Origin: Alphaproteobacteria bacterium
GTDB lineage: Bacteria > Pseudomonadota > Alphaproteobacteria > Bin95
Direction: 5' to 3'
NCBI GenBank assembly: GCA_963665325.3
Contig: CAXXWS020000003.1
Location: 800,001-864,000, forward strand
Length of the DNA stretch: 64,000 nt
Under the pieces are notes generated by a model. The model was not told where the DNA came from. It ran no database searches and saw only the letters and a list, made by a program, of their open reading frames with translations. Shown piece by piece: positions 14,549 to 35,508 of this stretch. Each line of letters begins with the position of its first letter. Position 1 is the first letter of the stretch. Made by a program: the position numbers and the translations under genes.

Positions 14549-15640
14549 ATGCAGCACGAACCGTCTCCCGCCGCCGCCATCGCCGCGGCGCTCGCCGCGC
14601 GCGCCGAGGACGTCTGCCGGCGCTATCTCCCCAACGGACGCAGGCTGGGCCGCTACTGGATCTGCGGCGACCTCGACGGCGCCCGCGGCCGCTCGCTCTT
14701 CGTCCGCCTCTCCGGGTCCGGCAAGTCCGGTGGCTGGACGGACGCAGCAACGGGGCAGCACGGCGACCTGCTCGACCTCATCCGCTACCGCACCAACGCG
14801 CCGACGCTGCGCGCCGCGCTCGACGAGGCGCGGGCGTTCCTCGCCCTGCCGCCTGTGGCGACACCTGCTTCGGACGAGCCGTATGACGCGACCGAGGCGG
14901 CGCGGCGCCTGTGGCGGCGCTGCCGCGCCGTCGCCGGCAGCCATGCCGAGCGCTATCTCCAGGCGCGGGGTCTGTCGCGCTGCCGCTTTGCGGCGCTACG
15001 CTTCCATCCCGAGCTTCGCTACCGCGAAGGCTCCACCGTGCGCCGCTTCCCGGCGCTGGTCGCCGCCGTCACCGCCAGCGACGGCGCGATTACCGGCGTG
15101 CAGCGGACCTGGCTCGATCCGCGCCGGCCCGCCAAGGCGGGCGTCGCGACCCCGCGCAAGGCGCTCGGCCGCATTCACGGCCTCGCGGTGCGCTTCGGCG
15201 CGCCTTCCGGCCTCGCTCCACTCGTCGTCGGCGAGGGCATCGAGACCGTCCTGTCGCTGATCACCGCCGTGCCGGAGATCCGCGCGGCCGCCGCGCTATC
15301 GGCCGGCAGCCTCGGCGCGTTCGCGCCGCCGCCCGGTGTCGCCCGCCTGGTCATCGCCCGCGACAACGACGAGGACGGCGCGCTCGCCGCCGAACGTCTC
15401 GCCCGGCGCTGCGCGCGGGCCGGCGTCGCCGCCACGATCGTCGTCCCCGTCGGCAACGACTTCAACGACGACCTGGTCGACCTCGGCGCACTGGCTCTGC
15501 GCGCCCGGTTGGCGCCGCTGTTCCGCTGCGGGGCCTGCCCCGGATCCCGGATCGCGTCCTGGACAGGCTCCCGATCCGGGGGAGGAGGAGAAGAGCGGAA
15601 GGTCGGGCGAGCCGACCCGAGGAGAGGAGAGAGTCGATGA
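14549..15640 (+). CDS. TOPRIM-domain primase-like protein
   Basis: WTDAATGQHGDLLDLI, YLQARG, VQRTWLD, VVGEGIET, IARDND, NDFNDDL. Confidence 0.9.
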   Translation: MQHEPSPAAAIAAALAARAEDVCRRYLPNGRRLGRYWICGDLDGARGRSLFVRLSGSGKSGGWTDAATGQHGDLLDLIRYRTNAPTLRAALDEARAFLALPPVATPASDEPYDATEAARRLWRRCRAVAGSHAERYLQARGLSRCRFAALRFHPELRYREGSTVRRFPALVAAVTASDGAITGVQRTWLDPRRPAKAGVATPRKALGRIHGLAVRFGAPSGLAPLVVGEGIETVLSLITAVPEIRAAAALSAGSLGAFAPPPGVARLVIARDNDEDGALAAERLARRCARAGVAATIVVPVGNDFNDDLVDLGALALRARLAPLFRCGACPGSRIASWTGSRSGGGGEERKVGRADPRRGESR

Positions 15641-15978
15641 GCGCCGTCATCAATCTCAGGCACGAGCCGAAGCTGCGCGAGGAATTCGAATATGCGCATG
15701 TCGTAAACAACACCGTGCTGATCGACCGCCGCACGAAGTGGGGAAACCCGTTTCGAGTCGGTCGCGGCCAAACTGCCGGGCAGGCGGTCGCGCGCTACCG
15801 CGTCCATCTCTGGGAGCGCATCCGCGCGGGCGAGATTCCCCTGGAGGAGCTTGCCGAACTGGAATCCTGCTGGTTGGCATGTTGGTGCTCGGGGGATGGG
15901 CATCCCTGCCACGGCGAGGTGCTCGAACGCGCGGCAACCTGGGCAGCGCGGGTGCTGGCTGAGCGGGCCGATGCGTGA
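15637..15978 (+). CDS. DUF4326 domain protein
   Basis: IDRRTKWGNPF...LACWC..PCHGEVL. Confidence 0.85.
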   Translation: MSAVINLRHEPKLREEFEYAHVVNNTVLIDRRTKWGNPFRVGRGQTAGQAVARYRVHLWERIRAGEIPLEELAELESCWLACWCSGDGHPCHGEVLERAATWAARVLAERADA

Positions 15979-16148: not shown

Positions 16149-16257
16149 GGCGCCGCGCCGGGGCGACCGTGGCTCAGGCCCAAGCTCCGCCAAGGCTCGT
16201 TCCTCGCCAGGCTCCACTAGGGCCTTGCGCCCGCACCACTCGCCCCGGCGCGGCGCC
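16149..16257. repeat. long inverted repeat (18-bp perfect arms); candidate ssDNA promoter or ssi hairpin
   Basis: GGCGCCGCGCCGGGGCGA 16149-16166 / TCGCCCCGGCGCGGCGCC 16240-16257, with an inner AGGCCC/GGGCCT pair. Confidence 0.7.
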
Positions 16258-16362
16258 AAGCTCCACCAACCCCGCGTGGCTGCGGTCCGCGCGCGTGACC
16301 CAAAAAACCATCACATCGGGGCACACGCTCCGAACCGTGCAACCCAGGATCGGGAGATCGTC

Positions 16363-17286
16363 ATGACCATCATCGAGAACATCGAAACCGCCGAGCAGTC
16401 CGTCACCGCGACCGTCTGCGAGAACGCCGCCCTCTACGGCGCTGCCCCCGAGCGCGACGAGTTCGACACCCGGGACGTCTGGGACGCCGACGACGCGACC
16501 GACGCGGTGCTCGAGTCCTTCCGCATCCTCTGCGAAGGCGTCGGGCCGGACGGGTTCCAGCTCGCCGACGAGCGCGAGAGCCTGCTCTGGGGCTTCGTCA
16601 ACATGTTCGACGCCCAGACCCAGCGCCTCGACCGCGCCGCCGACAAGCTGATGCCCGACCTCCGCGACCTCCAGCGCGAGCAGGACGGCACCGAGATCAA
16701 GTCGCGCGAGCTGGAGCTGACGACCGACCGGGCGCAGAACCTCACCGCCCGGCGCGATGCGTTCGAGCGGATGCGCGACGAAGCCGCCGAGGCATACCGC
16801 AGCGAGACCGGCGGCATGTGGCGGCCCCGGCGCGGATCGCATGCGAGCCAGACCGGCAAGCTGACCTCCGCCGCCATCGACGCCCGCGACTACCAGCGCG
16901 CGAGGAAGGACCGCAAGACCATGGCGCACCTGCCGCAGGGCACCCTCGTCGCCATCGCCGGCGGAAAGGACATCGCCAACCCGGCGGCGGTGATCGAGCG
17001 CCTGGAGAAAGCCCGCGAGAAATACGCAGACATGGTGCTCGTGCATGGCGGCGGACCCGGCGTCGAGAAGATCGCGGCAAGCTGGGCCGAGCGCAACGGC
17101 GTCCACCAGATCGTCTGCAAGCCGGACTGGGACCGCCACGGACGCGCCGCACCGTTCCGCCGCAACGACGAGCTGCTGAACCTCCTGCCGAAGGGCGTCA
17201 TCGCGTTCCCCGGCTCCGGCATCACCGAGAACCTCGTCGACAAGGCCCGGCAGCTCGGTATCCCGGTCCAGCGCATCGCAGCCTGA
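16363..17286 (+). CDS. DUF2493 (YspA/SLOG) domain protein
   Basis: VAIAGG, LVHGGGPG.E.IA..WA, PDW.RHGRAAPFRRND, FPGSGITENLVDKA. Confidence 0.9.
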   Translation: MTIIENIETAEQSVTATVCENAALYGAAPERDEFDTRDVWDADDATDAVLESFRILCEGVGPDGFQLADERESLLWGFVNMFDAQTQRLDRAADKLMPDLRDLQREQDGTEIKSRELELTTDRAQNLTARRDAFERMRDEAAEAYRSETGGMWRPRRGSHASQTGKLTSAAIDARDYQRARKDRKTMAHLPQGTLVAIAGGKDIANPAAVIERLEKAREKYADMVLVHGGGPGVEKIAASWAERNGVHQIVCKPDWDRHGRAAPFRRNDELLNLLPKGVIAFPGSGITENLVDKARQLGIPVQRIAA

Positions 17287-17340: not shown

Positions 17341-18183
17341 CCGACAAACGGTGTTGCGGCGGCACCGTCGTCCTCGCGCGCGCTTCGCGCCGCGCTCGCG
17401 ACCGCCGCGCCACTCGATTGCAGATGCACTTCACCGCGCATCGGTGCCGTCGGCACTGCCGGCGCTCGTGACCGGTGCTCCGGTCACTCGCCGCTGCACC
17501 ATGCTGCACATGAGTGCATCGCCTGCTGCGCCGATCCTGGCGCACCGCCGCTCGCATCGCTCGCGGCATTCGTGCAGGCGCGCCCGCGGAGCCCGCCGTC
17601 ACTGCGCTCGACACTTCGTCCCTTCGCAGTGTCCGCATCGTCCGCCGCTCAATCGCCGCTGCGGCTCCGATCCGCCGGGTCCTCCGGCGTCGATCTTCCC
17701 GATCTCCCGTACAGCATGAATCGTCTGTCTGACCCGCCGGGCGGGCCTTGGGTTTCACACCTGACGCAGTTCCTCTGCGGTCATGGCGGAGGCTGCGAAT
17801 GACTGCGATGGGCTGCGCAGGCCTGCGATTCTGCGCAGCGCTGTCATGCCGGGAAAAGTCCGCCGCTACAGCGCGCCTGGCCTTGCGGTCAGGCCGCGCA
17901 GTGAGAGCGGCGAGAATTCAGGGGCTTGACTGGCCCCCGCTGCAACGCTCCGTTCGCACCGCCGTCAGAGCGCATATCCTCTGTCCGATAGAGGGCGGTT
18001 CAGCGGCGTGCGCTGGCGTGCGCACCGCCATGACGAGGGCACTTCCGCGGCGCTCGGCTTGACATTGCTTTGCGCCGGGTGGAAGCGTTCGTCTCATGCC
18101 AGGATGTCCAGCATTGGCTTGAATTGCCGAGAAGATCGGGACGGTGACCGTGGTCGCGATCGAGCAGGAAAAGGGACAGGAAG
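17341..18183. other. long hairpin-rich non-coding region, candidate oriT
   Basis: About 840 bp with no convincing ORF and many inverted repeats; lies just upstream of an RHH-like gene; nic site not identified. Confidence 0.35.
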
Positions 18184-18519
18184 ATGGAAAAACCGGCTGA
18201 GCAGCTGCTGGAGAAGCGCATCCGCGTATCGGCCAGCCAATGGGATCGCCTGCATGTGGCGGCCCAGACGACCAGCCTCACCGCGAATCAGCTCTTGGTC
18301 GAGCTTGCGATCGAGGCTCTCGACCGGCGGGAATGGCCGCACACCGAGGCTGAGATCCGCATGTACCGTGCCAACCTGTTCACCGCGCAGGTGCTCGCGC
18401 GGGAACTGATCGATACCGGGCGCGAGGAAAAACTCGCGGAAATCCGCCGCCATGTCTCGCAGCTGGCTCCCGAATTGCGGACAAAGACATTCGATTCTAC
18501 GCCGTCCGACGCCCGGTAG
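18184..18519 (+). CDS. small RHH-like DNA-binding protein, possible relaxosome accessory factor
   Basis: KRIRVS (strand) followed by two predicted helices QWDRLHVAA / ANQLLVELAIEAL; AGGAAG upstream. Confidence 0.55.
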   Translation: MEKPAEQLLEKRIRVSASQWDRLHVAAQTTSLTANQLLVELAIEALDRREWPHTEAEIRMYRANLFTAQVLARELIDTGREEKLAEIRRHVSQLAPELRTKTFDSTPSDAR

Positions 18520-18628
18520 CCCACGCGGCAGTGGCCCACATGCCCCGGATGCTACGTACGTACGCGGGCTGCCGGCCCGTCGGGCCTGACAATGCTTCAA
18601 TGAGGCCGGCGCGTGCCCACCAGGTGGC
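18519..18628 (-). CRISPR. degenerate single-spacer mini-array (crRNA-like RNA) upstream of cas3
   Basis: On +, GCTTCAATGAGGCCGG (18594-18609) equals the first 16 nt of the repeat and GCCCCGGATGC (18542-18552) equals repeat positions 26-36; about 40-nt spacer between them. Confidence 0.8.
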
Positions 18629-18784
18629 GATCGCGTTTCTGATCGTACACAGCGTCATCGCTCCTCTCCCGGCCTTCGCAAGTTCCGGGCTATGCTCAAC
18701 CAAATCTTGATCGCGCCGGACAATGAGGGAGTGAAAAGCGACCGGACCATTCACCGGGCAACATGATCTCCAGCGGAGGATAGC

Positions 18785-21320
18785 TTGGACGGAACAGCGA
18801 TCTATCGAATTGCTCTCGGCGACAACAAACAGCCAGACCCTTGGCAGCATGACCTCATGAAGGGCGAGTGGCCGCAAGTACTGATCGCGCCCACCGGCTC
18901 GGGCAAGACAGCGGCTGTCACTCTCGGCTGGGCCGCGCATCGACTGCGATCGCCCGGTACGACGCCGCTCCGCCTGGTGTGGTGCTTGCCGATGCGTACC
19001 CTGGTGGAGCAGACTGCGGGCGACATCAGAGGTTGGTTTGGCAAGCTGACCGAGGAGACGGATAGTCCAAAGGCGTTGCCCGGCCCAGAGGATGTGCATG
19101 TCCTTATGGGTGGCGTCGAGGCTGGCGACTGGCTTGCAAAACCCGAACAACCTGCGGTGCTCGTAGGCACTCAGGACATGCTCCTCAGCCGCGCGCTCAT
19201 GCGGGGCTACGCCACCTCGCGGGCCAAATGGCCGATGGAATTCGCACTGCTTCATGACGACGCACAATGGGTCTTCGATGAGGTCCAGCTCATGGGGGCG
19301 GGCCGCCCGACATCGGCCCAACTCGAAGCATTTCGCCGATGCGAGGCTGTGCGAGCCGCAAGGGCGCATCGCTCCTACGGTCGTCCTGCCCGAAGTCTCT
19401 GGATCTCGGCTACCCTCGATCCGGCTTGGCTCGAGACCGTGGATCATGCCGAACCACCGCCGGAAGCCGTGGTGCAGGTCGATCCGGGAGCGGCGATCGA
19501 CGGCCGGCTGGCGCGCCTCGCCAAGGCGAGCAAGACACTTCGCCGATCCGACGTCGCGCCAGCGTCCCCAAAGTCCGGTGACGTCGATCATTATATCGCG
19601 GAGATCGCGGAATCCATCCTGGCTGCTCACCGTCCCGGGCATATGACCCTCGCGATCCTTAACCGGGTGGCGAGAGCGCAAGCCCTATATGCGGCGATCA
19701 AACGATTGCTCCGACACCAGGAACCACCGCCACCGACACTGGCTCTCGTCCATTCGCGCTTCCGCTTGGCTGAGCGCGAACAGGAGATGGGTAAGGTTGC
19801 CAGAGGCGAGTCGAATGACGTCATCGTCGTCGCCACGCAAGCCATCGAAGCCGGACTCGACATCTCCGCCGCCGTTATGTTCACCGAGCTGGCGCCCTGG
19901 TCCTCCATGGTGCAGCGCTTCGGTCGCGCGAACCGGCACGCGGAGCTCGATGGCGGGGCAGAGATTCACTGGATCGGCGTGCTCGACGAAGCGAACGACG
20001 AGAAGGCCAAGCGCGTCTTGGCGCTTCCCTACGCGGCCGAGGAGCTTCATTCGGCGCGGGAACGACTCGCGTCGTTGGTCGACGCGGCTCCTGCAAATCT
20101 TCCACCGCCGAATGACATCGATCCCCCGCGTCGTGTCATCCGTAGGAAGGATCTTGACGATCTTTTCGATACGGACCCAGACCTGACCGGCTTCGATGTC
20201 GACGTCTCCCCCTACGTCCGCGATGTGGACGACACCGATATCCGCGTTTTCTGGCGCGATCTGCGCGATCGGTCCGGCACCGACCAGGTGCCGCCCCCGC
20301 CCCATGCGGGCGAGCTGTGCGCCGCTCCGATCGGCTGGGCTAAGGACTGGCTGAGGACGGTGCGAAGGAAAAGTTCCGACGATCTCGTCTTCGTACGTGA
20401 TCCGCAATGGCGGAGCGCGGAGAGTTCGGCTGGTGCAGCGCCGCCCGGCTGGCGGCCCTTTCGGGATGACCCGTGGCCGGGGATGACCCTGCTCGTCGAT
20501 ACCACGGCCGGCGGATACGATGAATCCATCGGATTCACAGGCGATCCCAAACACGTTCCGGCGCCGATCGCCGGCTCGACGGATTCTACGACCGCATCGG
20601 CTCCGTCACCGGCTACGGACGAGGAAGGTCACGACGAAGATCCGCGAAGCGCAATCGGAGTACCGGTGCTGCTCACCGATCACCTTGAGCATGTCGCCGC
20701 GGAGGCCAAGGCCCTCTGCTGCGCACTCGCCGTCGACCCCGAGACCCGCAGAGCCATCGTTCGGGCGGCGAGCTGGCACGACTTGGGCAAGGCGCACGCG
20801 GTCTTCCAGGACACCATGCAGCGAGGGCTCCTCGCACCCGATGCAATTAGAGGTGGGCTCCTCGCCAAGACGGTCGGGACTAACCTACGTCATGGTCGTG
20901 CCTTCTTCCGGCACGAGCTCGCCTCCGCCCTCGCATTCCTTGACCACGAACGCTGGTCGCGCGATGCCGATCTGGTGACCTATCTAATCGCCGCCCATCA
21001 TGGGATGGTCCGGATGAACCTTCGGGCACTGCCGCGCGAGCGCGCGCCAACGGGGGAGCGGGCAGGCGCACACTTCGCCCGCGGGGTATGGGAGGGCGAC
21101 GAGCTGCCGAGCGTCGATCTGGGCGCTGGCGAACGCTGGGCAGGCGGAACCCTTACCCTGTCGGTCATGGAGCTCGGCTGGGACGAGGCGACGCGCGAGA
21201 GCTGGGCCGAGCGCACGCGGGAACTGCTGGTGCGCTTCGGCCCCTTCCGGCTCGCCTGGATGGAGACCATCGTCCGCCTTGCCGACTGGCGGGCATCGGC
21301 TAAGGAACGGGAGGGAGGTT

Positions 21321-21334
<14 letters not shown>
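18785..21334 (+). CDS. cas3: type I-G Cas3 (N-terminal helicase, C-terminal HD nuclease)
   Basis: GGAGGA RBS, TTG start; APTGSGKT, DEVQ, SAT, QRFGRANR; C-terminal WHDLGKAH, RHE, AHHG, LADW. Confidence 0.95.
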
Positions 21335-24762
<3,428 letters not shown>

Positions 24763-24766
24763 AGGA

Positions 24767-26368
24767 ATGTTTGCCCTCACGTTCCGTTTTCCAGCCGGTC
24801 GCTACCACGCGACGCCGTGGGGCCGCAACGTCAACGAGGCGGATATCGCGTGGCCGCCAGAGCCTTGGCGGCTGTTGCGAACGCTCATCGCCGCTTGGTG
24901 GCGCAAGGGCGATCACGAGCGCTGGTCGAAGAGCGATCTTGCCGCCCTCATCGACACGCTGGCCGAGACCCCGCCCGACTACCACCTACCCGAAGGGGCG
25001 ATCCACGCCCACACACGCCACTACATGCCCCAAGGAAAGTTAGACAAGGGGAGAGAGAGAACGGCGCTCGTCTTTGACGGGTTCGTTCACCTGCCGAGAG
25101 GGGCGGAAATCGTGGCGGTGTGGCCCGACCTGGCTCTGAACGGGGATCTGTTCGAGTTGGCGGCCGATCTCGCCGAATCAGTCGGCTATCTCGGCCGCGC
25201 AGAGAGTTGGACCGAATGTCGGGCCGTGGACCACTGGAACGGCAACGCAAACTGTCGAGTCGTGGGAACCGAGGGCGCCGGAACTTCGATCCGTGTGATC
25301 GCGCCGCGCTCGCCCGCGGCGTATGCGGCCGAACGACAGCGCCTGATCGCGAATGCCAAGCAGGAAACAGCCGGCGCGGCGTTTCGGAGCAAAGCGACCG
25401 GTGCAGACACCCTGCCGGCGCGGCTCGTCGATGCGCTGGCGCTCGATACCGCAGACTATCAGGATCGGGGATGGAGTCGTCCGCCGGCGGCGCGCGAAGT
25501 CGTCTACATGTGCGCCGCAGACGCGAGCCCCGGGGTTATTCCCCGCGTGTTCGTCGGACGTCGCCACGCCATCCGGAGCGAGGATCGGCCGACTGTCGCC
25601 CGGTATCTGGTGGCCGGACGGCCCCTTCCCCGCATTGAAGATGCTGTGAAGCTCGGAGAGCTCATGCGCCGCGCCGCGCTCGCCCAGTTCGGCTGGAGGA
25701 AGGACGAGGTGATCGGCCGCTCGATTCCCAACGCGCCGTGGCAGATCTCGGGACGGGGCGTCGATGGTCGGCCTCTTGCGGATCCATCACATCCCCATGC
25801 TTTCTGGCTGCCGGAGGACGCGGATTCGGATGGCTGGATTGACCATATCTCGGTCTACATCGAGAGTGGCATCGACGATGAAGCCCGCGTCCGGCTCGAC
25901 CGGATCACCCGTCTCTGGCTCGCACCGAGGCAGCGCCCGAGCCACGATGAGCCCGATCCCGCGACTGTGAAGGAATGGCGGCTCGCGCTGGAGGGATTCG
26001 GCCGTCCAGCCGACTTCGCCGGGAGCGCGCGCATCTTCGGAATCGCGACCAAGTGGCGAAGCATGACCCCGTTTCTGGCCGCTGGGCACCTCAAGGCATC
26101 CGGCTACCCGGGCGAGGTTCTCCGCCTGCTCAGACGCCGCGGCCTGGATGCGGACGGAGTGGAGGTCGAGGAGCTGAAGAGCATCGCCGTCGGCGGAACC
26201 GAGCGCCGTGCCCTCCATTTCCACCGATTCCGTTCCCGGGGCGGCGAGAAGCAGCCCGACACGGCCGGCGCCCTCCTGCGCATCGTCTTTCCGCAACCGA
26301 TCACCGGGCCGCTTGCCATCGGATTCGGCAGCCATTTTGGCCTTGGGCTCTTCACGCCCGACGATTGA
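24767..26368 (+). CDS. csb2: type I-G Cas5/Cas6 fusion Csb2
   Basis: GRYHATPWG, WPPEPWRLLR, YLGRAESW, HPHAFWLPED, GPLAIGFGSHFGLGLF. Confidence 0.95.
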   Translation: MFALTFRFPAGRYHATPWGRNVNEADIAWPPEPWRLLRTLIAAWWRKGDHERWSKSDLAALIDTLAETPPDYHLPEGAIHAHTRHYMPQGKLDKGRERTALVFDGFVHLPRGAEIVAVWPDLALNGDLFELAADLAESVGYLGRAESWTECRAVDHWNGNANCRVVGTEGAGTSIRVIAPRSPAAYAAERQRLIANAKQETAGAAFRSKATGADTLPARLVDALALDTADYQDRGWSRPPAAREVVYMCAADASPGVIPRVFVGRRHAIRSEDRPTVARYLVAGRPLPRIEDAVKLGELMRRAALAQFGWRKDEVIGRSIPNAPWQISGRGVDGRPLADPSHPHAFWLPEDADSDGWIDHISVYIESGIDDEARVRLDRITRLWLAPRQRPSHDEPDPATVKEWRLALEGFGRPADFAGSARIFGIATKWRSMTPFLAAGHLKASGYPGEVLRLLRRRGLDADGVEVEELKSIAVGGTERRALHFHRFRSRGGEKQPDTAGALLRIVFPQPITGPLAIGFGSHFGLGLFTPDD

Positions 26369-26440: not shown

Positions 26441-27417
26441 GCTTCAATGAGGCCGGGGCCGGTCCGCCGACAGGTCCGCCGGCGTGCCGTCGCTTCAATG
26501 AGGCCGGGGCGCGCGCGCCCCGGATGCTTGCATCCGCTTCTCGAACGGCCGGGAGAGGAAATAGCTTCAATGAGGCCGGGGCGCGCGCGCCCCGGATGCC
26601 CTGAAGCAGCACGGCATCGTCATCATCGAGCCCGAAACCGAGCTTCAATGAGGCCGGGGCGCGCGCGCCCCGGATGCCGCCGTCATCAGGCCGCGTGCGA
26701 GGCGGCGACAAGGGCGCTTCAATGAGGCCGGGGCGCGCGCGCCCCGGATGCCCCGGAACTCGCGGCGGCGGTGGACGTGCCGACGCTGATGCTTCAATGA
26801 GGCCGGGGCGCGCGCGCCCCGGATGCCGGCCCGTCGACGTGGAAATGGTCGCCCGCGCGCAGCTGCTTCAATGAGGCCGGGGCGCGCGCGCCCCGGATGC
26901 CCATCGACGTCCCATCGGGACCAAGCCTCCACTGCGTGCTTCAATGAGGCCGGGGCGCGCGCGCCCCGGATGCCCTGGAACTCGGCGACGCCATCGGCGT
27001 CCGTCTTGCCGTGCTTCAATGAGGCCGGGGCGCGCGCGCCCCGGATGCCCCGGCTGGAAATAACCAGCGTCGGGCGGCATGAAGTCGCTTCAATGAGGCC
27101 GGGGCGCGCGCGCCCCGGATGCCGCGTCGCCCTGGGCGTCGACCGTCAGGAACTCGAGCTTGCTTCAATGAGGCCGGGGCGCGCGCGCCCCGGATGCCTG
27201 CGCTTCCGAACGCCTGGGCCGATCCGCAAGGCACGCTTCAATGAGGCCGGGGCGCGCGCGCCCCGGATGCCGCCGGACGCCACGGAAGGGCCGCTAAACT
27301 GCGGAGGGCTTCAATGAGGCCGGGGCGCGCGCGCCCCGGATGCCAGGTCGCATATGAAATCACCAAGCGCCGCAGACCGGGCTTCAATGAGGCCGGGGCG
27401 CGCGCGCCCCGGATGCC
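26441..27417 (-). CRISPR. CRISPR array: 13 full 37-bp repeats plus one truncated trailer repeat; complete spacers 35-41 nt
   Basis: Repeat on minus strand GGCATCCGGGGCGCGCGCGCCCCGGCCTCATTGAAGC; + starts at 26441 (truncated), 26492, 26564, 26642, 26716, 26791, 26865, 26938, 27013, 27087, 27162, 27235, 27308, 27381; a possible further decayed repeat near 26369-26403. Confidence 0.98.
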
Positions 27418-27682
27418 AGGCACCATACAACTTGTTGGTAGCCAAGACAAAATCCAGTCGATTTCGAGCGGTTCGGGAATTTCCTTGCAGCAGGCATCCT
27501 TTTGGCCCCTCGCGTGTCCTGGCGAGCGCCCCAAATCTCCCAGCTATCAACATGTTGCACAGATTCGAGCGATTCCCGGTATTTCTGCGTTGCTTCGCCA
27601 CTCGAACCGACTCGGCGGACCTCGCAACGGCTGATTTCAGTGTCAGGCATCGGATTCGCAATCCCTTGAAGCGAGCACATCA
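27418..27682 (-). promoter_or_regulatory. CRISPR leader
   Basis: AT-richer non-coding DNA between cas2 and the non-degenerate end of the array. Confidence 0.75.
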
Positions 27683-27976
27683 TCATACAACAACCGCTTG
27701 ACGCTCGATCGCTGAAAATGTCTTGCCGATGCTCATGACGGCGATATCGGTCTTATCTGCCGGCCCTATGTCGATCACCAGAACGTGGTCCTCGCCCGCC
27801 TTGATAAGTTCGCGCAGCTTCGTTTCCAGTTCAGCGCGACGACGACGCGACAGGCGGCACTGGAACACCGATAGCTGGAGCCATTCCCCAAAGCCGTGCA
27901 TGGTCTTGAAAACGCGCCGCCAGCGTCGCGTATCTGAGATGTCGTATGTGACGATGTAGGTGCGCTCATCGCTCAT
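27683..27976 (-). CDS. cas2: CRISPR-associated Cas2
   Basis: YIVTYDISD.RRWRRVFK...GEWLQLSVFQC. Confidence 0.95.
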   Translation of the reverse strand: MSDERTYIVTYDISDTRRWRRVFKTMHGFGEWLQLSVFQCRLSRRRRAELETKLRELIKAGEDHVLVIDIGPADKTDIAVMSIGKTFSAIERQAVVV

Positions 27977-27988
27977 GGTGACCACCTG

Positions 27989-29725
27989 TCATCGGGGAAG
28001 GTAGTGCGGATAATCGGGCAGTTCGCCCAGCAGATGGCGGCACAGCAGGCGCGCCTGGAGCAGCAGAAGCCGCCGCATGCTGAGCCGGTAGCCGAACAGC
28101 GGGTGGGTGGTTTCCTGAGAGAGCCGGCGCTCGAACGCGCCGACGAAACGGCGGCGCCCTGCTTGTGTCAGGGACGTGCCGGTGGGAGCGCTGACAAAGT
28201 CCCCCGGCGAGACCTCGCCGGTGTTGACCGCCGACAGGACCACCGAGTCCGCGATGATCGGCCGAAACGGCTCCATCACGTCGAGGGCGAGCGCGGGCTT
28301 TCCGTATCGCGGCGCATGGAAGAAGCCCCGATAGGGATCGAGACCAACCGTTGCTAGCGCGACGGTCAGATGGCGCGTCAGCATGGCGTATGCGAGCGAC
28401 AGCATGGCATTTACGGGATCGGTCGGAGGACGCCGGTTGCGGGCGTCGAAACGGAACGGCGCCAAGCTATCCCCAGCTTCCGCCGATTCCTTGGTGCCCG
28501 GTGGCGTCAGTAGATCGGAAAATGCACGGAAGTACGTTGCTGCCGCGTCCCCTTCCAGTCCGAGCAACGCGCTCACCGCAGTCGCGCGCTTCGTCGACCT
28601 CCGGGCGGCGTTGAGCCGGTCCAGCACGACCTTGCGCTGCTCGCGGTCGCCGCGCCAGTTGCGGCGCACAATGGTCCGCTGGTTCACGATCTTCGCGGCG
28701 ACCAGATCGCGGGCGAAGGCCAGGCAATAGGCAGGGTCGAAGCTGCGCTGGTACTGCGCCGTTCGGACTTCCACATTGCGGTGGCCAACTCCGTGGGCGA
28801 TGCCCCGAAACCAGCCGCCATGGCTGTGGAAGGCGACCGGGATTTCGCGGTCCATGAGTGCGGCAAGCGCGGGCGTGGTGATCGAGACGTTACCGAACAG
28901 CGCCACGTCGGACACATCGTTCAACCGGACGGTGGTATCGCCCTGCTCCTCGTCGGCGACCTTCAGTGTTTCGCCTTCTTTCGAGACCCGCGCCCTCTGC
29001 GACTGGACAACCAGCGGCAGGGCCTCGTCCGCCCCGATGGCGATGGGGCGGGGCGCCAGATCGGAGCCCCCGAGCGCGCGCATCTCGTCCGGAAGGCAAA
29101 TGGACACTAGCGCACAGCGTGGGCATTTCGGGCTGTCCCGTAAGGGTGGCGGAATGCGGCCGTGGGCGACCGTCAGACGCAGCCGGCTCACCGCCTCCCG
29201 TGCGGCGAGGCGGAGTTCATCGTCCAGGACAATCCGGACTCGCTCGCGGCTCTCGGCATACCAGATGGCGCCTTCCTCAACCCTGTAGCCGTGCTCTTCG
29301 AGCAGCAGCGCCTGAAGGCAAACCTGGACACGCTCCGGCTCGTAGGCGCCCTTCTCGACATGGGGCCGCTTTCCGCGCTTATAGTCGACCGGCGTAACCG
29401 CGCCGTTCTCGGCCTCGGCAATGTCGATTTTCGCGATAACACCGAGCTTCTCGGACGAGAGCGTCAGAGAGCGGCTGACAACCTTGGTATCGTCGCTCTC
29501 CAGAGCTTCGGGATCGGGCAACGGTTTGTTGGGTCGGTCGACTCGAGTATGCACCCGCCGCCCGTCCACCGTGTCGCCGGTCTCCGCCCATTCGGCCTGA
29601 CCCCACATGAGATAGGCGAGGCGCGGGCAATAGACGAACTCGTTCACCATCCTTGCCGGCACCAGCGGATGCTCGCCGGTCGCCGACGGCGCGGGAAGAT
29701 GGAGTTCAAGTTGCTTGGTTGTCAT
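27989..29725 (-). CDS. cas4/cas1: Cas4/Cas1 fusion
   Basis: YCPR, KIDI, VDYKRG, CPRCALVSIC (Cas4); LEGDAA, RNRRPPTDPVNAMLS, ALDVMEPFR (Cas1). Confidence 0.96.
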   Translation of the reverse strand: MTTKQLELHLPAPSATGEHPLVPARMVNEFVYCPRLAYLMWGQAEWAETGDTVDGRRVHTRVDRPNKPLPDPEALESDDTKVVSRSLTLSSEKLGVIAKIDIAEAENGAVTPVDYKRGKRPHVEKGAYEPERVQVCLQALLLEEHGYRVEEGAIWYAESRERVRIVLDDELRLAAREAVSRLRLTVAHGRIPPPLRDSPKCPRCALVSICLPDEMRALGGSDLAPRPIAIGADEALPLVVQSQRARVSKEGETLKVADEEQGDTTVRLNDVSDVALFGNVSITTPALAALMDREIPVAFHSHGGWFRGIAHGVGHRNVEVRTAQYQRSFDPAYCLAFARDLVAAKIVNQRTIVRRNWRGDREQRKVVLDRLNAARRSTKRATAVSALLGLEGDAAATYFRAFSDLLTPPGTKESAEAGDSLAPFRFDARNRRPPTDPVNAMLSLAYAMLTRHLTVALATVGLDPYRGFFHAPRYGKPALALDVMEPFRPIIADSVVLSAVNTGEVSPGDFVSAPTGTSLTQAGRRRFVGAFERRLSQETTHPLFGYRLSMRRLLLLQARLLCRHLLGELPDYPHYLPR

Positions 29726-29920: not shown

Positions 29921-32860
29921 TCATAGGCTGAGATCGCGCTCGATGTGCTTCCGGGCGCCGGCCTCCCCGATTTCTGGCTCTCGCGTGCGATCCCGCTCTG
30001 GCGATATCGAAGCTCCGCTTTCCCGAACACTGTTGAGGCCCGCTTCCCGCCCCTTCGCCTGCTCCGGCCCGACCGCCTCCAGCGCCGCGATCCTCTCGCC
30101 GGTTGCCGTTTCGAGCTGCTCGCGCAGCGCCGCCCTGTCGTCGGTGACCAGTTCCGCCCGGTCGCGGGCCCGGCTGATCTCGACATAGAGCATCCGCTGC
30201 GTCGTCAGGTTGGGATGTTTCGCTTCCATTGCCGCGATTACCGTATCGACGGTGCGGCCCTGGAACGAATGCACGGTCGAGGCCCAGGCGCGGTCGACAT
30301 GGCGGAGCTGCGGATCGCCGGGAGCGAGATCGAGAGACCGCCCGTCCTCGAGCCGGAACGTGACCTTGCCGTCCCTCACCGCGGCGACCTCGGCGGCGCC
30401 GCTGTTCACCAGTCCCAGACCGGCATCATTGCGGGTCCAGCGGACGCGGTCGCCGGCGCGCAGTTCCATCTCCATGACCCTGTAGACCTCGACCCCGCCG
30501 CTCCGTGCCGCAATCCGCTCCGGCTCCCAGGCGACTGACCGGCCGTCCGCGCCGGCCAGTTCGACCGTGTGCGCCTTGTGATCGACGCCGGCGACCCGCA
30601 GCTCGTCGCCCTTCTCGACGCCGAGGCGCTTGTAGGGGCGGTGGAAGGCGACGACGTCGCCCGGCGCGTAGTTCGCCGCCAGCGCCTTCTCCGCATTCGT
30701 GTATCCCTGCGAGACCAGCCGCTCGGCGGTGACGGCGGGGCCGTGGACGACGCCGTCGCGCACCAGGCGCTCGCGGACGATGGCGTTGATGTCCTCGCGG
30801 ATGGCGTGGCTCGGCGCCATCAGCCCGGCACTGGCGCGCTCCTCCGGCGACAGCCGGAGCCAGCGCGCGGCGGCGGCGCCGGCGAGGTTGTCGGGCTTCA
30901 CCTCGGCGACGTTCGGCCCGAGCTTCCCGAAGGCGCGTCCGATGTCGCCGGCGAGGCTGGCCTCGACGGCGGCCTTCAGGTCGGGATCGCGCTGGCGGCG
31001 GATCTCGTCCATCAGGGCGGTCTCCATGCCGGCGGCCTGCAACTGGGCGAAGGGTTTCCCGGCGTCGACCGCGCCGAGCTGCTTCTCGTCGCCGACCAGC
31101 ACCACGCGGGGGATGCGCAGCGCATCGGCGATCCTGAGCAGGTCCCGGGCCTGGACGGTGGAGGCCAGCGAGCCCTCGTCGACCACCAGCGCGGTCCTGG
31201 CGAACGCGGCGCGCATCTCCTTCCCGCCCTTCCTCGTCAGCCGCCCTTCGGCGACGCCGGCATTGCGGGCGAGGAAGCGCTGCAGGGTCTCGGATTCGAT
31301 CCCGGCCTCGTCGCCGAGCGTCCGCGCCGCCGAGGCCGACGGCGCAAGCCCCCGGACCTGCCAGCCGCGCTTCTCGAGCAGCGCGCGGGCGCGGTTCAGC
31401 ATGGTGGTCTTGCCTGTGCCGGCATAGCCCTGTACCCCGACCGTGCGGTCGTCCGAGGCGAGGATCAGCTTCACCGCCGCCTTCTGCCCGGCCGTGAGCG
31501 GCCCGTTGCGGAGCGCCTTGTCGACCGCGCGGGCGCGCATCGGTGCCGCGATCCGTCCCCGGCCGGCGCGCATGAGCGCGACGGTCTCGGTCTCGTCGGC
31601 GACCGCCCGGTCGGTGGTCAGGCGGTCTTCGGCGCCCGGTAGCCGCGCCGCGAGCAGCGTCCCGGCCTTCTCCAGCGCGGCGACCTCGCGTTCGGCCTCG
31701 GCGATGGTCACCGCGCCGGTGCGCCAGGAGAGCGCCGCGGCGAGCAGATCGGTGCGGGCGAACACCGCCTCGCGCTCGGCCAGATGCGCCACCGCCCAGG
31801 CCATCGCCTCGGCGGCCGGGTCGGGGTGCTCCGCCGGCGTTTCCGGGGAGGCGATCTTACCCTCTACGGCCGCCGGTCCGGTTTCCGCCTCCACCGCAGG
31901 AGCCGCTTCGCGCACCGCATCCGTCCGCCCGGCCTCCTTCGCCGCCTGGGCGACCAACCCGCAGGCATCGAAGCCGAGATCGGCGGCCTGTTTCTCCCAG
32001 ATGCCCCGGAGTTCCGCCCGGTCGACATCGCGCTTCCCGGCGCGGGTCATCAGCGCGGCGCGCTGGGCGAGACGCTGGTTCTCCGCCGGGGTCCCCAGGC
32101 CGCGGGCGTCCATGGCCGCCTCGATCTCGGCGCGCCGCGTCGAAAAGGCCTCCACGACCGCGCGGGACACCCCGGCGATCTCGAAACGGCCGTCGGCGTG
32201 GGTCTTCTCGATGCCGTAGCCGAGCCGCGAGAGCCCGCGCGCCAGCTCGCTGCGGTAGAGCGCGCCGAGCAGCATCTTCGATTCGTAGAGCCTCTCGTTG
32301 GCCATGGTCCGCCATTTGCCGTCCTCCCCCTTCACCATGTTGGCGAGAACCGCGTGGGTGTGGAGCTGGGGATCGAGATTGCGGGACGTGTCATGCCGGA
32401 ACGTGGCGGCGATGATCTTCTGGTTGCCGGCGCGCACCATCCTGCCCGTGTCCGGATCCTTCATGCGGGTCTCGGCGGCGTTTCTCTCGACCCAGTCGAG
32501 CGCCGCCTTCACCGCCCGGTCGTGGGCCTCGGCGATGCGGGCGTCGCCGCCGACCAGCGCGGCGAGGGATACCGATTTCGGGGCGGAGAAGGTGAGGTCG
32601 CGGCCGGGACGGTGGGCGATCCCGCCGTCCGGGCCGCGTTTGCCCAGCTGCCGGCCGGTGCCGTCGGGCACCTTCCCTTCGAGCACGCCCCGGAACGCCT
32701 CCGGATCGACCGGGCCCTTCAGCCCGAGGTCTTCCGCGCCCCTGCCGAACCAGGCGCTGGCGTCGCGATGCTCCGGGTCGTCCCTGGCATAGTAGCCATC
32801 GCGCTCGTAGTAGCTCGCGCCCTGGGCGGCCGAGGCCAGCGCCCCGATCGAGGCCACCAT
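29921..32860 (-). CDS. traI: MOBF (TrwC/TraI-type) relaxase-helicase
   Basis: SYYERDGYY, DLTFSAPKSVS, HDTSRNLDPQLHTH, GYAGTGKT, VDEGS; true start MVASIG at 32860. Confidence 0.95.
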   Translation of the reverse strand: MVASIGALASAAQGASYYERDGYYARDDPEHRDASAWFGRGAEDLGLKGPVDPEAFRGVLEGKVPDGTGRQLGKRGPDGGIAHRPGRDLTFSAPKSVSLAALVGGDARIAEAHDRAVKAALDWVERNAAETRMKDPDTGRMVRAGNQKIIAATFRHDTSRNLDPQLHTHAVLANMVKGEDGKWRTMANERLYESKMLLGALYRSELARGLSRLGYGIEKTHADGRFEIAGVSRAVVEAFSTRRAEIEAAMDARGLGTPAENQRLAQRAALMTRAGKRDVDRAELRGIWEKQAADLGFDACGLVAQAAKEAGRTDAVREAAPAVEAETGPAAVEGKIASPETPAEHPDPAAEAMAWAVAHLAEREAVFARTDLLAAALSWRTGAVTIAEAEREVAALEKAGTLLAARLPGAEDRLTTDRAVADETETVALMRAGRGRIAAPMRARAVDKALRNGPLTAGQKAAVKLILASDDRTVGVQGYAGTGKTTMLNRARALLEKRGWQVRGLAPSASAARTLGDEAGIESETLQRFLARNAGVAEGRLTRKGGKEMRAAFARTALVVDEGSLASTVQARDLLRIADALRIPRVVLVGDEKQLGAVDAGKPFAQLQAAGMETALMDEIRRQRDPDLKAAVEASLAGDIGRAFGKLGPNVAEVKPDNLAGAAAARWLRLSPEERASAGLMAPSHAIREDINAIVRERLVRDGVVHGPAVTAERLVSQGYTNAEKALAANYAPGDVVAFHRPYKRLGVEKGDELRVAGVDHKAHTVELAGADGRSVAWEPERIAARSGGVEVYRVMEMELRAGDRVRWTRNDAGLGLVNSGAAEVAAVRDGKVTFRLEDGRSLDLAPGDPQLRHVDRAWASTVHSFQGRTVDTVIAAMEAKHPNLTTQRMLYVEISRARDRAELVTDDRAALREQLETATGERIAALEAVGPEQAKGREAGLNSVRESGASISPERDRTREPEIGEAGARKHIERDLSL

Positions 32861-32877
32861 ACCGGACCTCCCCGGGG

Positions 32878-34911: not shown

Positions 34912-35109
34912 GCCGATGTCCTCCATGGCGGTTTCGAATGCGGGTCCGCCGGGTCCGGCGCGGCGAAGGCGCGCCCCCGGGGCGTTCTCCCGCCGGAGCG
35001 CCGCGCGGAGGCGGAGTCCGGCGGGGGCCGGGGCGAAGCGGACCGGGCCGGAGAAAGGCGCCGACGGCGGCGTCCGGCCGCCCGGCCTGCAGGACAGGAG
35101 GCCGCGGCC

Positions 35110-35508
35110 ATGACACGAACGGGATGCAGCGCAGGCGGCGGCCGGGCAGCGCGGCGCGGCAACGGGGGAGGGCGCCCCGATCCGGCAGGACACTCTCCCG
35201 CGAGCATCGAACGCGCCGTCGTGCTGGCGGGGTTCGCGCCCGCGATCCTCTGCACCCTCGTGCGGCTTGTCTTCGGCGCCGGCGGCGAGCTTGCCGCCGG
35301 ACTCTGGATCTCCGCGGCGCTCTGGGCCGCGCTCGCCTCCGCCGTGCTCGCGCTCCGGCGCGGCCTCCGCCATCGCGACTGGAGCGCGTTCGCCCGCTAC
35401 CGGCTGCCGGACGGGCGCGGCGAGCGCATCGACTTCGTCTCGCAGACCGGCCAGTACGCCTGGATGCGCATCGCCGAGGAGCACGAGCGCCTGATGCGCC
35501 GCGACTAG
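35110..35508 (+). CDS. small membrane protein convergent with traG, candidate entry-exclusion factor
   Basis: AGGAGG RBS; two hydrophobic helices; the only + strand gene within the tra region. Confidence 0.55.
   Translation: MTRTGCSAGGGRAARRGNGGGRPDPAGHSPASIERAVVLAGFAPAILCTLVRLVFGAGGELAAGLWISAALWAALASAVLALRRGLRHRDWSAFARYRLPDGRGERIDFVSQTGQYAWMRIAEEHERLMRRD

What the first reader, a model, noticed from the sequence alone, without database searches (positions are those of the whole stretch)
18519..18785. Type I-G mini-array whose spacer partly matches the DNA upstream of cas3: candidate RNA-guided autoregulator
Seen: a degenerate repeat, a spacer of about 40 nt (18554-18593) and a second degenerate repeat, 8 kb from the main array and in the same orientation. 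The parts that would end up in a mature crRNA are the ones conserved: the 5' handle (CCGGCCTCATTGAAGC) and the downstream GCATCCGGGGC. The spacer begins ATTGTCAGGCCCGA, which matches ATTGTCCGGCGCGA on the minus strand at 18724-18711 (12/14, first 6 perfect), about 60 bp before the cas3 start. A TACGAT -10-like hexamer (minus strand, 18647-18642) lies just upstream of the mini-array. Known: CreA/CreR-type crRNA-like RNAs guide Cascade to repress promoters through short seed pairing. Inference: this is such a circuit in a mobile I-G system. Caveats: the flank is 5'-CTC rather than the TTN reported for I-G, and the mismatches fall at positions 7 and 11, not the tolerated 6 and 12.
Basis: partly seen in the sequence, partly recalled or inferred. 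Interest (0 to 1): 0.8.

Follow-up and report, generated by a model that had tools for sequence, protein, structure and literature searches.

The report
Degenerate CRISPR mini-array upstream of cas3
A single CRISPR spacer flanked by two decayed repeats sits just before the cas3 gene of a type I-G system; it looks like the self-regulating guide RNAs found in related systems, but this copy lacks the features those have and is probably a broken remnant.

Summary
A CRISPR-derived unit lies on the minus strand in the 265-bp gap before type I-G cas3. It has a degenerate repeat ending in an exact 16-nt CCGGCCTCATTGAAGC, a 41-nt spacer, and an 11-nt remnant of a second repeat. That 16-mer occurs nowhere else in the 5.58-Mb genome outside the main array.

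The spacer's first 14 nt match a site 61-74 nt before the cas3 start at 12/14. This is rarer than chance: 5 of 3000 shuffles reach it.

In 80 other I-G loci I found 11 with mini-arrays upstream of cas3. Their spacers match a nearby site at 13-15 of 15 non-sixth positions, and the site is always flanked by 5'-TTN. At least 9 keep an intact hairpin in the second repeat. So this kind of circuit exists in I-G.

The window's copy fails these hallmarks:
- The flank is CTC.
- The mismatches fall at positions 7 and 11, giving 10/15, which is background level.
- The second-repeat hairpin that Csb2 binds is gone.
- No promoter-like site is found.
- The three closest loci (72-78% Cas3 identity) lack the element.

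Best reading: a broken or vestigial CreR-type mini-array (about 0.5). A working regulator is not excluded (about 0.25).

The parts
18594..18630 (-). First degenerate repeat (psiR1). The last 16 nt (18609-18594) are identical to the main-array repeat. The 8-nt would-be 5' handle ATTGAAGC is 18601-18594.
   Evidence: the only exact copy of the 16-mer outside the main array; 21/23 identical over 18616-18594, score 36 against a null maximum of 25; weak Rfam CRISPR-DR16 match at 18594-18628, 17.6 bits, below the gathering score; a small interrupted hairpin ends 10 nt before the repeat end, as in the canonical repeat.
18553..18593 (-). Spacer of 41 nt, beginning ATTGTCAGGCCCGA and ending in a (CGTA)3 run.
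   Evidence: Main-array units are 72-78 nt (spacings), so spacers are 35-41 nt. No exact 20-nt match in viral contigs. No TT-flanked partial target at 13/15 or better anywhere in the genome.
18542..18552 (-). Remnant of the second repeat (psiR2): GCATCCGGGGC, which is repeat positions 2-12. Similarity stops abruptly after it.
   Evidence: 11/11 identical, then nothing; the canonical 8-bp hairpin is absent; a different long irregular hairpin is predicted (-26.7 kcal/mol, z -0.91, no better than shuffles).
18711..18727 (-). Proposed target ATTGTCCGGCGCGA (18724-18711) with 5' flank CTC (18727-18725).
   Evidence: Matches 12/14 (5 of 3000 shuffles). Scores 10/15 when every sixth position is ignored, which is background.
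18642..18647 (-). TACGAT, a -10-like hexamer with no -35 partner.
   Evidence: no promoter-like site on either strand in the gap.
18184..18519 (+). Small gene (111 aa) that ends 22 nt before the psiR2 remnant. By eye it resembles a ribbon-helix-helix protein; no family hit.
   Evidence: GC by codon position fits this frame; translation; no NCBIfam or Pfam hit; not present in the other I-G loci held.
18785..21334 (+). cas3g (type I-G helicase-nuclease), TTG start preceded by GGAGGA.
   Evidence: TIGR02621, 710 bits.
21279..26368 (+). Effector genes cas8g/csx17 (21279-23816), cas7g/csb1 (23752-24762) and csb2 (24767-26368).
26441..27417 (-). Main CRISPR array: 37-nt repeat GGCATCCGGGGCGCGCGCGCCCCGGCCTCATTGAAGC, 14 copies of its 3' end, with the last copy truncated. 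The leader side is about 27418-27600.
27683..29725 (-). Adaptation genes cas2 (27683-27985) and cas4/cas1 fusion (27989-29725), on the strand opposite to cas3-csb2.

Best explanation
The element is a real CRISPR-derived single-spacer unit at the left edge of a type I-G cas cassette. It is most likely a broken or vestigial copy of the CreR-type self-regulating mini-arrays that other I-G systems carry upstream of cas3.

In working copies, inferred here from 11 other loci, the sequence of events would be:
- A crRNA-like RNA is cut by Csb2 at a hairpin in the second repeat.
- It is loaded into Cascade.
- It pairs through its first 14-18 nt (every sixth base unpaired) with a TTN-flanked site at the promoter.
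- Transcription of the mini-array and cas3 is held down when Cascade is free.

In this window the first repeat and handle are still family-typical, and a partial match upstream of cas3 survives. The rest is damaged. The second repeat is cut off after 11 nt, so no Csb2 hairpin is left. The flank reads CTC, one transition away from TTC. Two paired seed positions are mismatched.

I infer that the RNA, if made, is not matured or loaded normally, and that repression is lost or at most weak.

Shown: the anatomy, the statistics and the family comparison. Inferred: the history and the loss of function.
For: - The unit derives from the array: exact 16-mer, unique outside the array; repeat alignments.
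- It sits in the family-typical place. Isolated repeat ends with at most 1 mismatch lie within 800 bp upstream of cas3 in 8 of 81 sources, the window included.
- The family pattern: 11 of 80 loci have a spacer-start match of 13-15/15, all 11 with 5'-TTN. With the stricter motif, 6 of 11 isolated hits reach 13/15 or more, all TTN. In contrast, 0 of 4 reversed-motif hits and 0 of 55 shuffled spacers reach 13.
- At least 9 of those 11 keep a second-repeat hairpin followed by GGCCTC..TTG, read by eye.
- The window departs on each point: flank CTC and 10/15; second repeat only 11 nt with no canonical hairpin.
- Csb2 binds the 3' hairpin (KD 43 nM) and not the 8-nt handle, and it cuts 4 nt 3' of the stem (Shangguan et al. 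preprint, passages).
- The 12/14 match is still rarer than chance (5 of 3000 shuffles). It lies on the same strand 131 nt upstream of the spacer. Seven of the 11 family targets lie 46-107 nt upstream on the same strand. This fits a decayed former target better than coincidence.
- The sister loci G008 (77% Cas3 identity, near-identical repeat), L103 (78%) and L023 (72%) have no such element. Their similarity to the window begins at the cas3 start codon, so the gap is a rearranged junction.
Against: - No expression or binding data exist, so loss of function is an inference.
- The parts flanking the spacer (16 nt and 11 nt) are perfectly kept while the rest of both repeats is not. Selection on a guide RNA could produce that pattern.
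- First repeats of the working family members are just as degenerate.
- PAM preference differs among I-G lineages: TAN in Bifidobacterium (Pan et al., passages). I could not infer this system's own PAM, because no convincing protospacer was found.
- One family member (L050) also has two non-sixth seed mismatches.
- A long alternative hairpin is predicted in the second-repeat region.
- Four sequencing runs hold the stretch unchanged, so no decay is visible within the species.
Confidence: 0.5

Rival explanations
1. Working CreR-like autoregulator. The minus-strand RNA is loaded into I-G Cascade and binds the CTC-flanked site 61-74 nt before cas3. There it represses cas3, and possibly its own divergent promoter, through a short seed.
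For: - The handle and the start of the second repeat are perfectly kept.
- The 12/14 match is anchored at spacer position 1 (5 of 3000 shuffles).
- The site lies between the divergent mini-array and cas3. The Liu et al. preprint (passage) describes the CreA target in the same way, lying between divergent PcreT and Pcas8.
- A divergent I-G mini-array with a promoter-proximal target exists in L034.
- The first repeat keeps a small hairpin at the right distance from the cut site.
- I-G PAMs are not uniform.
Against: - None of the 11 family targets lacks TTN.
- Seed positions 7 and 11 are mismatched.
- The canonical Csb2 hairpin is absent from the second repeat, and Csb2 binds that hairpin rather than the handle.
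- No promoter-like site is found on either strand.
- The element is absent from the three closest loci.
Confidence: 0.25
2. Plain array fragment with no regulatory past. One spacer with pieces of its flanking repeats was left at the cassette edge by recombination or deletion, and its resemblance to the upstream DNA is coincidence.
For: - Similarity to the repeat stops abruptly on both sides, which looks like breakpoints rather than drift.
- The gap is a junction not shared with sister loci.
- In several I-G loci, whole arrays lie upstream of cas3 on the opposite strand: L025, L027, L030, L040, L041, L052, L058.
- By the guide-style score the match is at background (655 of 3000 shuffles).
- The repeat finder lists four other repeat pairs of similar quality within 500 bp.
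Against: - The 12/14 match anchored at the first spacer base is rare by chance (5 of 3000 shuffles; 0 of 13 control spacers).
- Most isolated repeat ends found upstream of cas3 in other I-G loci do have a target.
- The flanks show no similarity to the main array's leader or trailer.
Confidence: 0.17
3. Some other role. Candidates are a repeat-bearing decoy RNA that soaks up Cas proteins (Racr-like), an antisense RNA to the 3' end of the upstream small gene, or part of a small minus-strand reading frame that starts at 18657 behind a GGAGAGGAG box (CreT-like).
For: - A Shine-Dalgarno-like GGAGAGGAG followed by ATG lies at 18669-18655 on the minus strand, opening about 54 codons that run through the unit (read).
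- The unit overlaps no other annotated function.
- The locus sits among conjugative-element genes.
Against: - The hairpin that a Csb2 decoy would need is missing.
- GC by codon position does not support coding on that frame.
- No promoter is predicted.
- No relatives were found to test conservation.
Confidence: 0.08

Closest known systems
CreR (Cas-regulating RNA) mini-CRISPRs. Liu et al., bioRxiv 10.1101/2023.03.10.532045 (abstract and passages seen).
   Same: - A degenerate two-repeat unit beside the cas genes.
- The spacer start partly matches DNA next to the cas promoter region.
- The idea that Cascade represses its own genes.
- The preprint says creA-like elements were found by hand for I-U, the old name of I-G, in its Figure S7.
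   Different: - CreR was tested in I-B, I-E and V-A, not in I-G.
- I did not see Figure S7 or any supplement, so I cannot say which I-U loci it shows.
- This copy lacks a valid flank, a clean seed and the second-repeat hairpin.
Type I-G mini-arrays found here upstream of cas3: L034, L050, L051, L053, L062, L081, L089, L090, L095, L096, L101.
   Same: - Position next to cas3.
- First repeat reduced to its last 13-16 nt.
- Spacer of ordinary length.
- Target usually on the same strand, some tens of nt upstream.
   Different: - All 11 have a TTN flank and 13-15/15 matches, with mismatches mostly at positions 6 and 12.
- At least 9 keep the hairpin.
- 10 of the 11 lie on the cas3 strand, so they would be read through into cas3.
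- The window's unit is on the other strand (as in L034) and fails the flank, seed and hairpin tests.
Regulatory mini-arrays of I-E, I-F1, I-D and I-B. Shmakov et al., PMC10120712 (passages and Table 1 seen).
   Same: - Mini-arrays of two repeat-like sequences near cas3.
- Partial spacer-promoter match next to a proper PAM.
- Mismatches at position 6.
- Some are transcribed away from cas3.
[quoted passage not shown]
   Different: - For I-G that paper gives only a table row: 235 loci, 46% with a repeat-like sequence, 4% with a mini-array.
- I saw no I-G example described in its main text.
CreTA (CreA antitoxin RNA with CreT toxin RNA). Known to me from passages of the Liu et al. preprint and from the abstract of PMC9458426 (search listing).
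   Same: - Degenerate repeats flank a pseudo-spacer.
- The target lies between divergent promoters.
   Different: - No toxin partner is shown here.
- The small minus-strand frame behind a strong ribosome-binding box is only a by-eye lead.
Racr and Cracr: repeat-mimicking anti-CRISPR RNAs of phages and plasmids. PMC10651486 (abstract in search listing); bioRxiv 10.1101/2024.10.29.618823 (passages).
   Same: Solitary repeat-like units outside arrays, on mobile DNA.
   Different: - Those are carried by invaders to disable a host system.
- This unit sits beside its own cas3.
- It lacks the hairpin a Csb2 decoy would need.

Membership tests
CreR-type regulatory mini-array (type I-G form) | Two repeat-derived sequences flanking one spacer, outside the main array and next to the cas genes | tested here: met
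   First repeat 21/23 identical, second 11/11, 41-nt spacer, 152 nt between the first repeat's inner end and the cas3 start.
CreR-type regulatory mini-array (type I-G form) | Intact 8-nt 5' handle (ATTGAAGC) directly before the spacer | tested here: met
   The handle length comes from Shangguan et al. (passages).
CreR-type regulatory mini-array (type I-G form) | Second repeat keeps the hairpin that Csb2 binds and cuts beside | tested here: not met
   only repeat positions 2-12 remain; the canonical 8-bp stem is absent. At least 9 of 11 family members keep it (by eye).
CreR-type regulatory mini-array (type I-G form) | Spacer start pairs with a nearby site, with mismatches tolerated at every sixth position | tested here: not met
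   10/15, with mismatches at 7, 11 and 15-17. This level is reached in 655 of 3000 shuffles. Family members score 13-15/15. By plain count it is 12/14, which is rarer than chance.
CreR-type regulatory mini-array (type I-G form) | Target flanked by the system's PAM (5'-TTN in all 11 loci found here; TTN cited for I-G by Shangguan et al.) | tested here: not met
   the flank is CTC. No TT-flanked site at 13/15 or better exists anywhere in the genome. The system's own PAM could not be inferred.
CreR-type regulatory mini-array (type I-G form) | Target at or beside the promoter of the cas genes | tested here: inconclusive
   The site is 61-74 nt before the cas3 start, but no sigma-70-like promoter is predicted on either strand. 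The scan covers one promoter type only.
CreR-type regulatory mini-array (type I-G form) | RNA is made, processed and loaded, and repression depends on Cascade | not testable with these tools
   No RNA run is listed for this stretch.
CreR-type regulatory mini-array (type I-G form) | Conserved in related loci, with spacer and target changing together | tested here: not met
   Absent upstream of cas3 in G008 (77%), L103 (78%) and L023 (72%). Four runs of the same or a near species hold it unchanged, so they are uninformative.
Type I-G CRISPR-Cas system | Cas3g, Cas8g/Csx17, Cas7g/Csb1, Csb2, Cas4/Cas1 fusion, Cas2, and a repeat ending ATTGAAGC | tested here: met
   all six proteins score above the curated cut-offs; the repeat end GGCCTCATTGAAGC is shared with most I-G arrays found.

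The most novel reading that the evidence does not exclude
The unit is a working, divergently transcribed CreR of a type I-G system carried on a conjugative element. It represses cas3 from a CTC-flanked, seed-mismatched site, and its guide is matured without the canonical Csb2 hairpin. That would mean regulatory binding by I-G Cascade has looser flank and processing rules than interference does. More broadly, self-repression by mini-arrays would be a regular but so far untested feature of I-G systems: 11 of 80 loci here, all with TTN-flanked targets.
Probability: 0.2. Interest if true: 0.6.

Novelty: new member of a known kind. Interest (0 to 1): 0.35.

Why it matters
Self-repression of cas genes by degenerate mini-arrays has been shown for I-B, I-E, I-F1 and V-A. 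For I-G I found only a table row and a mention of a supplementary figure.

The comparison made here gives a concrete, testable set of 11 I-G loci with TTN-flanked promoter targets. I-G is a special case because Cas3 rides on the effector (Shangguan et al., abstract). How binding is kept from becoming cutting is therefore an open point.

The window's own copy matters less. It is most likely a damaged example, useful mainly as a natural loss-of-features contrast.

Tried and rejected
Searches for the element in relatives:
- Plasmid collection with window 18000-19600: no match.
- Metagenome contigs with a 26-nt pattern spanning handle and seed: 0 hits.
- Metagenome contigs with Cas3: 1 locus, L103, which has no mini-array.
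- Viral contigs with Cas3: none.
- The whole order, 37 genomes: only G008.

PAM of this system:
- Window array against phages and plasmids: only weak or repeat-level hits.
- G008 array against the same collections: repeat-level hits, plus hits to one low-complexity spacer.
- 45 spacers of both arrays against the window's own genome: no convincing protospacer.
- A Cereibacter plasmid found through repeat similarity carries a different I-U layout, with a WYL-domain gene before cas3. I did not pursue it.

Other checks that led nowhere:
- The mini-array spacer as an ordinary spacer: no exact 20-nt match in viral contigs. The best genome sites (14/15 and 13/15, the latter including a roughly 10-copy repeat family) are what the score distribution predicts by chance.
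- Leader or trailer homology of the flanks: none.
- The CCTCATTG shared by the repeat end and the target flank: below the null mean (score 16 against 17.3). Rejected as evidence for a third repeat.
- Rfam: only a sub-threshold CRISPR-DR16 hit on the first repeat.
- Expression: no RNA holder is listed for the stretch.
- Contigs of runs X3-X6 laid on 17400-19600 hold the mini-array and the site without change, apart from 2 differing letters in one 582-nt contig of X4, one of which is at 18268. No covariation test was possible.
- Supplements of the papers were not seen. Figure S7 of the Liu et al. preprint and the supplementary tables of Shmakov et al. may already list I-G (I-U) examples.
Full report
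WHAT IS THERE

The window holds a complete type I-G CRISPR-Cas locus.
- cas3g (18785-21334), cas8g/csx17 (21279-23816), cas7g (23752-24762) and csb2 (24767-26368) lie on the plus strand.
- cas4/cas1 (27989-29725) and cas2 (27683-27985) lie on the minus strand.
- All score above the NCBIfam cut-offs.
- The main array (26441-27417) is read on the minus strand. Its 37-nt repeat is GGCATCCGGGGCGCGCGCGCCCCGGCCTCATTGAAGC, and the last copy is truncated.

GC content by codon position shows that a small plus-strand gene ends at 18519. The finding therefore lies in a 265-bp gap between that gene and cas3.

Read on the minus strand, the gap contains, in order:
- a degenerate repeat whose last 16 nt are exact (18609-18594; would-be handle ATTGAAGC at 18601-18594);
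- a 41-nt spacer (18593-18553);
- GCATCCGGGGC (18552-18542), which is repeat positions 2-12. All similarity to the repeat stops after it.

The 16-mer has 15 exact copies in the 5.58-Mb genome. Fourteen are in the main array and one is here.

THE PROPOSED TARGET

ATTGTCCGGCGCGA (18724-18711, minus strand) matches spacer positions 1-14 at 12/14. It has a 5' flank of CTC and mismatches at positions 7 and 11.

Whether the match is more than chance depends on the measure.
- As a plain anchored 12/14 match it is unusual. Five of 3000 dinucleotide shuffles of the 151-bp stretch between the first repeat and cas3 reach it. None of 13 main-array control spacers does; their best is 8-11. Genome-wide, 49 of 11,158,582 positions reach 12/14.
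- Scored as a type I effector reads a guide (every sixth base not paired, first 18 nt), it is 10/15. That is reached in 655 of 3000 shuffles. Two unrelated sites in the same scan also reach 10/15.

No TT-flanked site at 13/15 or better exists anywhere in the genome, in registers -2 to +2.

WHAT OTHER I-G LOCI SHOW

I aligned 25 Cas3g relatives and fetched 80 I-G loci from the genome collection. Their arrays nearly all end in GGCCTCATTGAAGC, so that motif can be searched for generally.

Isolated copies with at most 1 mismatch lie within 800 bp upstream of cas3 in 8 of 81 sources, the window included. Only a handful occur elsewhere outside arrays.

For eight such loci other than the window, the best non-self match of the spacer start had a 5'-TTN flank in 8 of 8. 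The scores were 11-15 of 15, and the mismatches fell mainly at positions 6 and 12.

A relaxed search (motif with at most 3 mismatches, site at 12/15 or better) printed 13 of 80 loci that have at least 200 bp upstream.
- Eleven have a site at 13-15/15 flanked by TTN: L034, L050, L051, L053, L062, L081, L089, L090, L095, L096 and L101.
- I dropped two. L078 is a regular array. L025 has a 3-mismatch motif in GC-rich DNA with flank ATT.
- For L062, a second hit of equal score with flank GAG came from a 3-mismatch motif on the other strand.

In a stricter run (at most 2 mismatches, 81 sources surveyed), 6 of 11 isolated hits reached 13/15 or more, all with TTN. None of 4 reversed-motif hits and none of 55 shuffled spacers reached 13.

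By eye, at least 9 of the 11 keep a full hairpin followed by GGCCTC..TTG in the second repeat. Their first repeat is reduced to its last 13-16 nt.

Two examples:
- In L034 the unit is divergent from cas3. Its TTG-flanked site begins 8 nt after a TTGATT-16-TATGAT promoter that points at cas3.
- In L089 the site (15/15, flank TTG) runs into a TTGACA hexamer that I read by eye as a -35 box. The consensus scan did not call that promoter.

I conclude that CreR-like circuits with a TTN flank recur in I-G systems.

WHERE THE WINDOW'S COPY DEPARTS

- The flank is CTC. It is one transition from TTC, the flank seen in L050 and L051.
- Two paired seed positions are mismatched.
- The second repeat is cut off after 11 nt, so the canonical 8-bp stem cannot form. 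RNAfold instead predicts a long irregular hairpin that is no better than shuffles (z -0.91). The first repeat keeps a small interrupted hairpin at the canonical distance from the cut site.
- No sigma-70-like promoter is found on either strand at 18500-18800. TACGAT at 18647-18642 exists but has no -35 partner.

According to Shangguan et al. (passages):
- Csb2 cuts 4 nt 3' of the stem, giving the 8-nt handle.
- It stays bound to the 3' hairpin (KD 43 nM) and does not bind the handle.
- Every sixth base of the guide is kinked out.
- I-G uses a TTN PAM.

An RNA without that hairpin is therefore not expected to be matured or assembled in the usual way. This last step is my inference.

RELATIVES

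- The same-genus genome G008 has a Cas3 that is 77% identical. Its array has an almost identical repeat (GTATCC... in place of GCATCC...) and lies on the strand opposite to cas3, as in the window. It has no repeat-like motif in 3.5 kb upstream of cas3.
- L103 (78%) and L023 (72%) also lack the motif.
- Upstream of cas3, G008 and L103 share a divergent small gene instead. Similarity to the window starts at the cas3 start codon (by eye).
- The gap is therefore a lineage-specific junction at the edge of the cassette.
- Four public runs hold the stretch essentially unchanged, so spacer-target covariation cannot be tested.

READING

The 12/14 match, its strand and its distance fit the family geometry too well for me to call it pure chance. 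The missing hairpin, the wrong flank and the seed mismatches make a normally working guide unlikely.

I therefore favour a broken or vestigial CreR-type unit (0.5) over:
- a working regulator (0.25);
- a plain array fragment with a chance match (0.17);
- other roles (0.08).

Cautions:
- PAMs differ among I-G lineages. Bifidobacterium uses TAN, and there Cascade without Cas3 did not repress in a cell-free test (Pan et al., passages).
- This system's own PAM could not be inferred.
- No expression data exist.

WHAT IS KNOWN

- CreR was shown for I-B, I-E and V-A. The same preprint states that creA-like elements were found by hand for I-D, I-C, I-E, I-F and I-U in its Figure S7, which I did not see.
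- Shmakov et al. describe mini-arrays near cas3 for I-E, I-F1, I-D and I-B, with a reporter test in I-F1. For I-G they give only a table row: 235 loci, 4% with mini-arrays.
- My searches for CreR, type I-G and mini-array together found no paper that treats I-G mini-arrays in its text.

The kind is therefore known. The window's unit is a new, atypical and probably defective member. The set of 11 I-G loci is a modest addition.

Noticed in passing
L034, L050, L051, L053, L062, L081, L089, L090, L095, L096, L101 (upstream of cas3; cas3 starts at 10001 in most of these loci): Eleven of 80 type I-G loci carry a mini-array before cas3. The spacer start matches a nearby site at 13-15 of 15 non-sixth positions, and the site is always flanked by 5'-TTN. 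Most keep an intact second-repeat hairpin. This is a ready test set for I-G self-repression.
   Followed up: partly
window 18184-18519 (+): A 111-aa gene lies directly before the mini-array. It has no Pfam or NCBIfam hit. Its N-terminal third looks by eye like a ribbon-helix-helix DNA-binding fold. It is absent from the other I-G loci held. It could be a regulator of the cas genes or part of the mobile element.
   Followed up: partly
window 18655-18669 (-), running to about 18495: A strong ribosome-binding-like box, GGAGAGGAG, followed by ATG on the minus strand opens about 54 codons that run through the mini-array. GC by codon position does not support coding. It is noted only because CreT-type RNA toxins have a similar start.
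   Followed up: no
window 18661-18678 (+) versus main-array spacer 12 (about 26528-26563, minus strand): A main-array spacer shares 17 of 18 nt, with one gap, with the gap upstream of cas3. Significance is marginal: 4 of 300 shuffles and 9 of 300 random genome pieces do as well. Both are ribosome-binding-like sequences.
   Followed up: partly
window 26441-29725 versus 18785-26368; G008 locus L104: The array and the adaptation genes (cas4/cas1, cas2) lie on the strand opposite to cas3-csb2, so the array converges on csb2. The same-genus relative G008 also has its array on the strand opposite to cas3.
   Followed up: partly
window 1871-6382 (+), 14911-15978 (+), 16225-17286 (+), 29921-35116 (-): The cas locus sits among genes typical of conjugative elements: a 1503-aa helicase with AAA_34 and Helicase_C_4 (Strawberry-notch C-terminal) domains plus weaker ResIII and methyltransferase matches, DUF4326, a YAcAr SLOG-domain protein, and a 1731-aa TrwC relaxase-helicase.
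   Followed up: partly
L010 4300-4700 (G008) and L103 480-840: The two closest relatives share a divergent small gene upstream of cas3 in place of the window's small gene plus mini-array. By eye it looks like a helix-turn-helix regulator. This suggests protein-based control in those loci.
   Followed up: no
genome C1 around 1479072-1481167, plus further copies on C1, C3 and C4: A repeat family of about 10 copies containing ATTGTCACCCCGGACGGAGCGGAG shares 13 of 15 scored positions with the mini-array spacer (flank TCA). I judged it chance from the genome-wide score distribution.
   Followed up: partly
window 17474-17769: Summed contig depth in four runs rises about 10- to 50-fold here, and many short, divergent contigs pile up. 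This suggests a multi-copy repeat element just upstream of the small gene.
   Followed up: no
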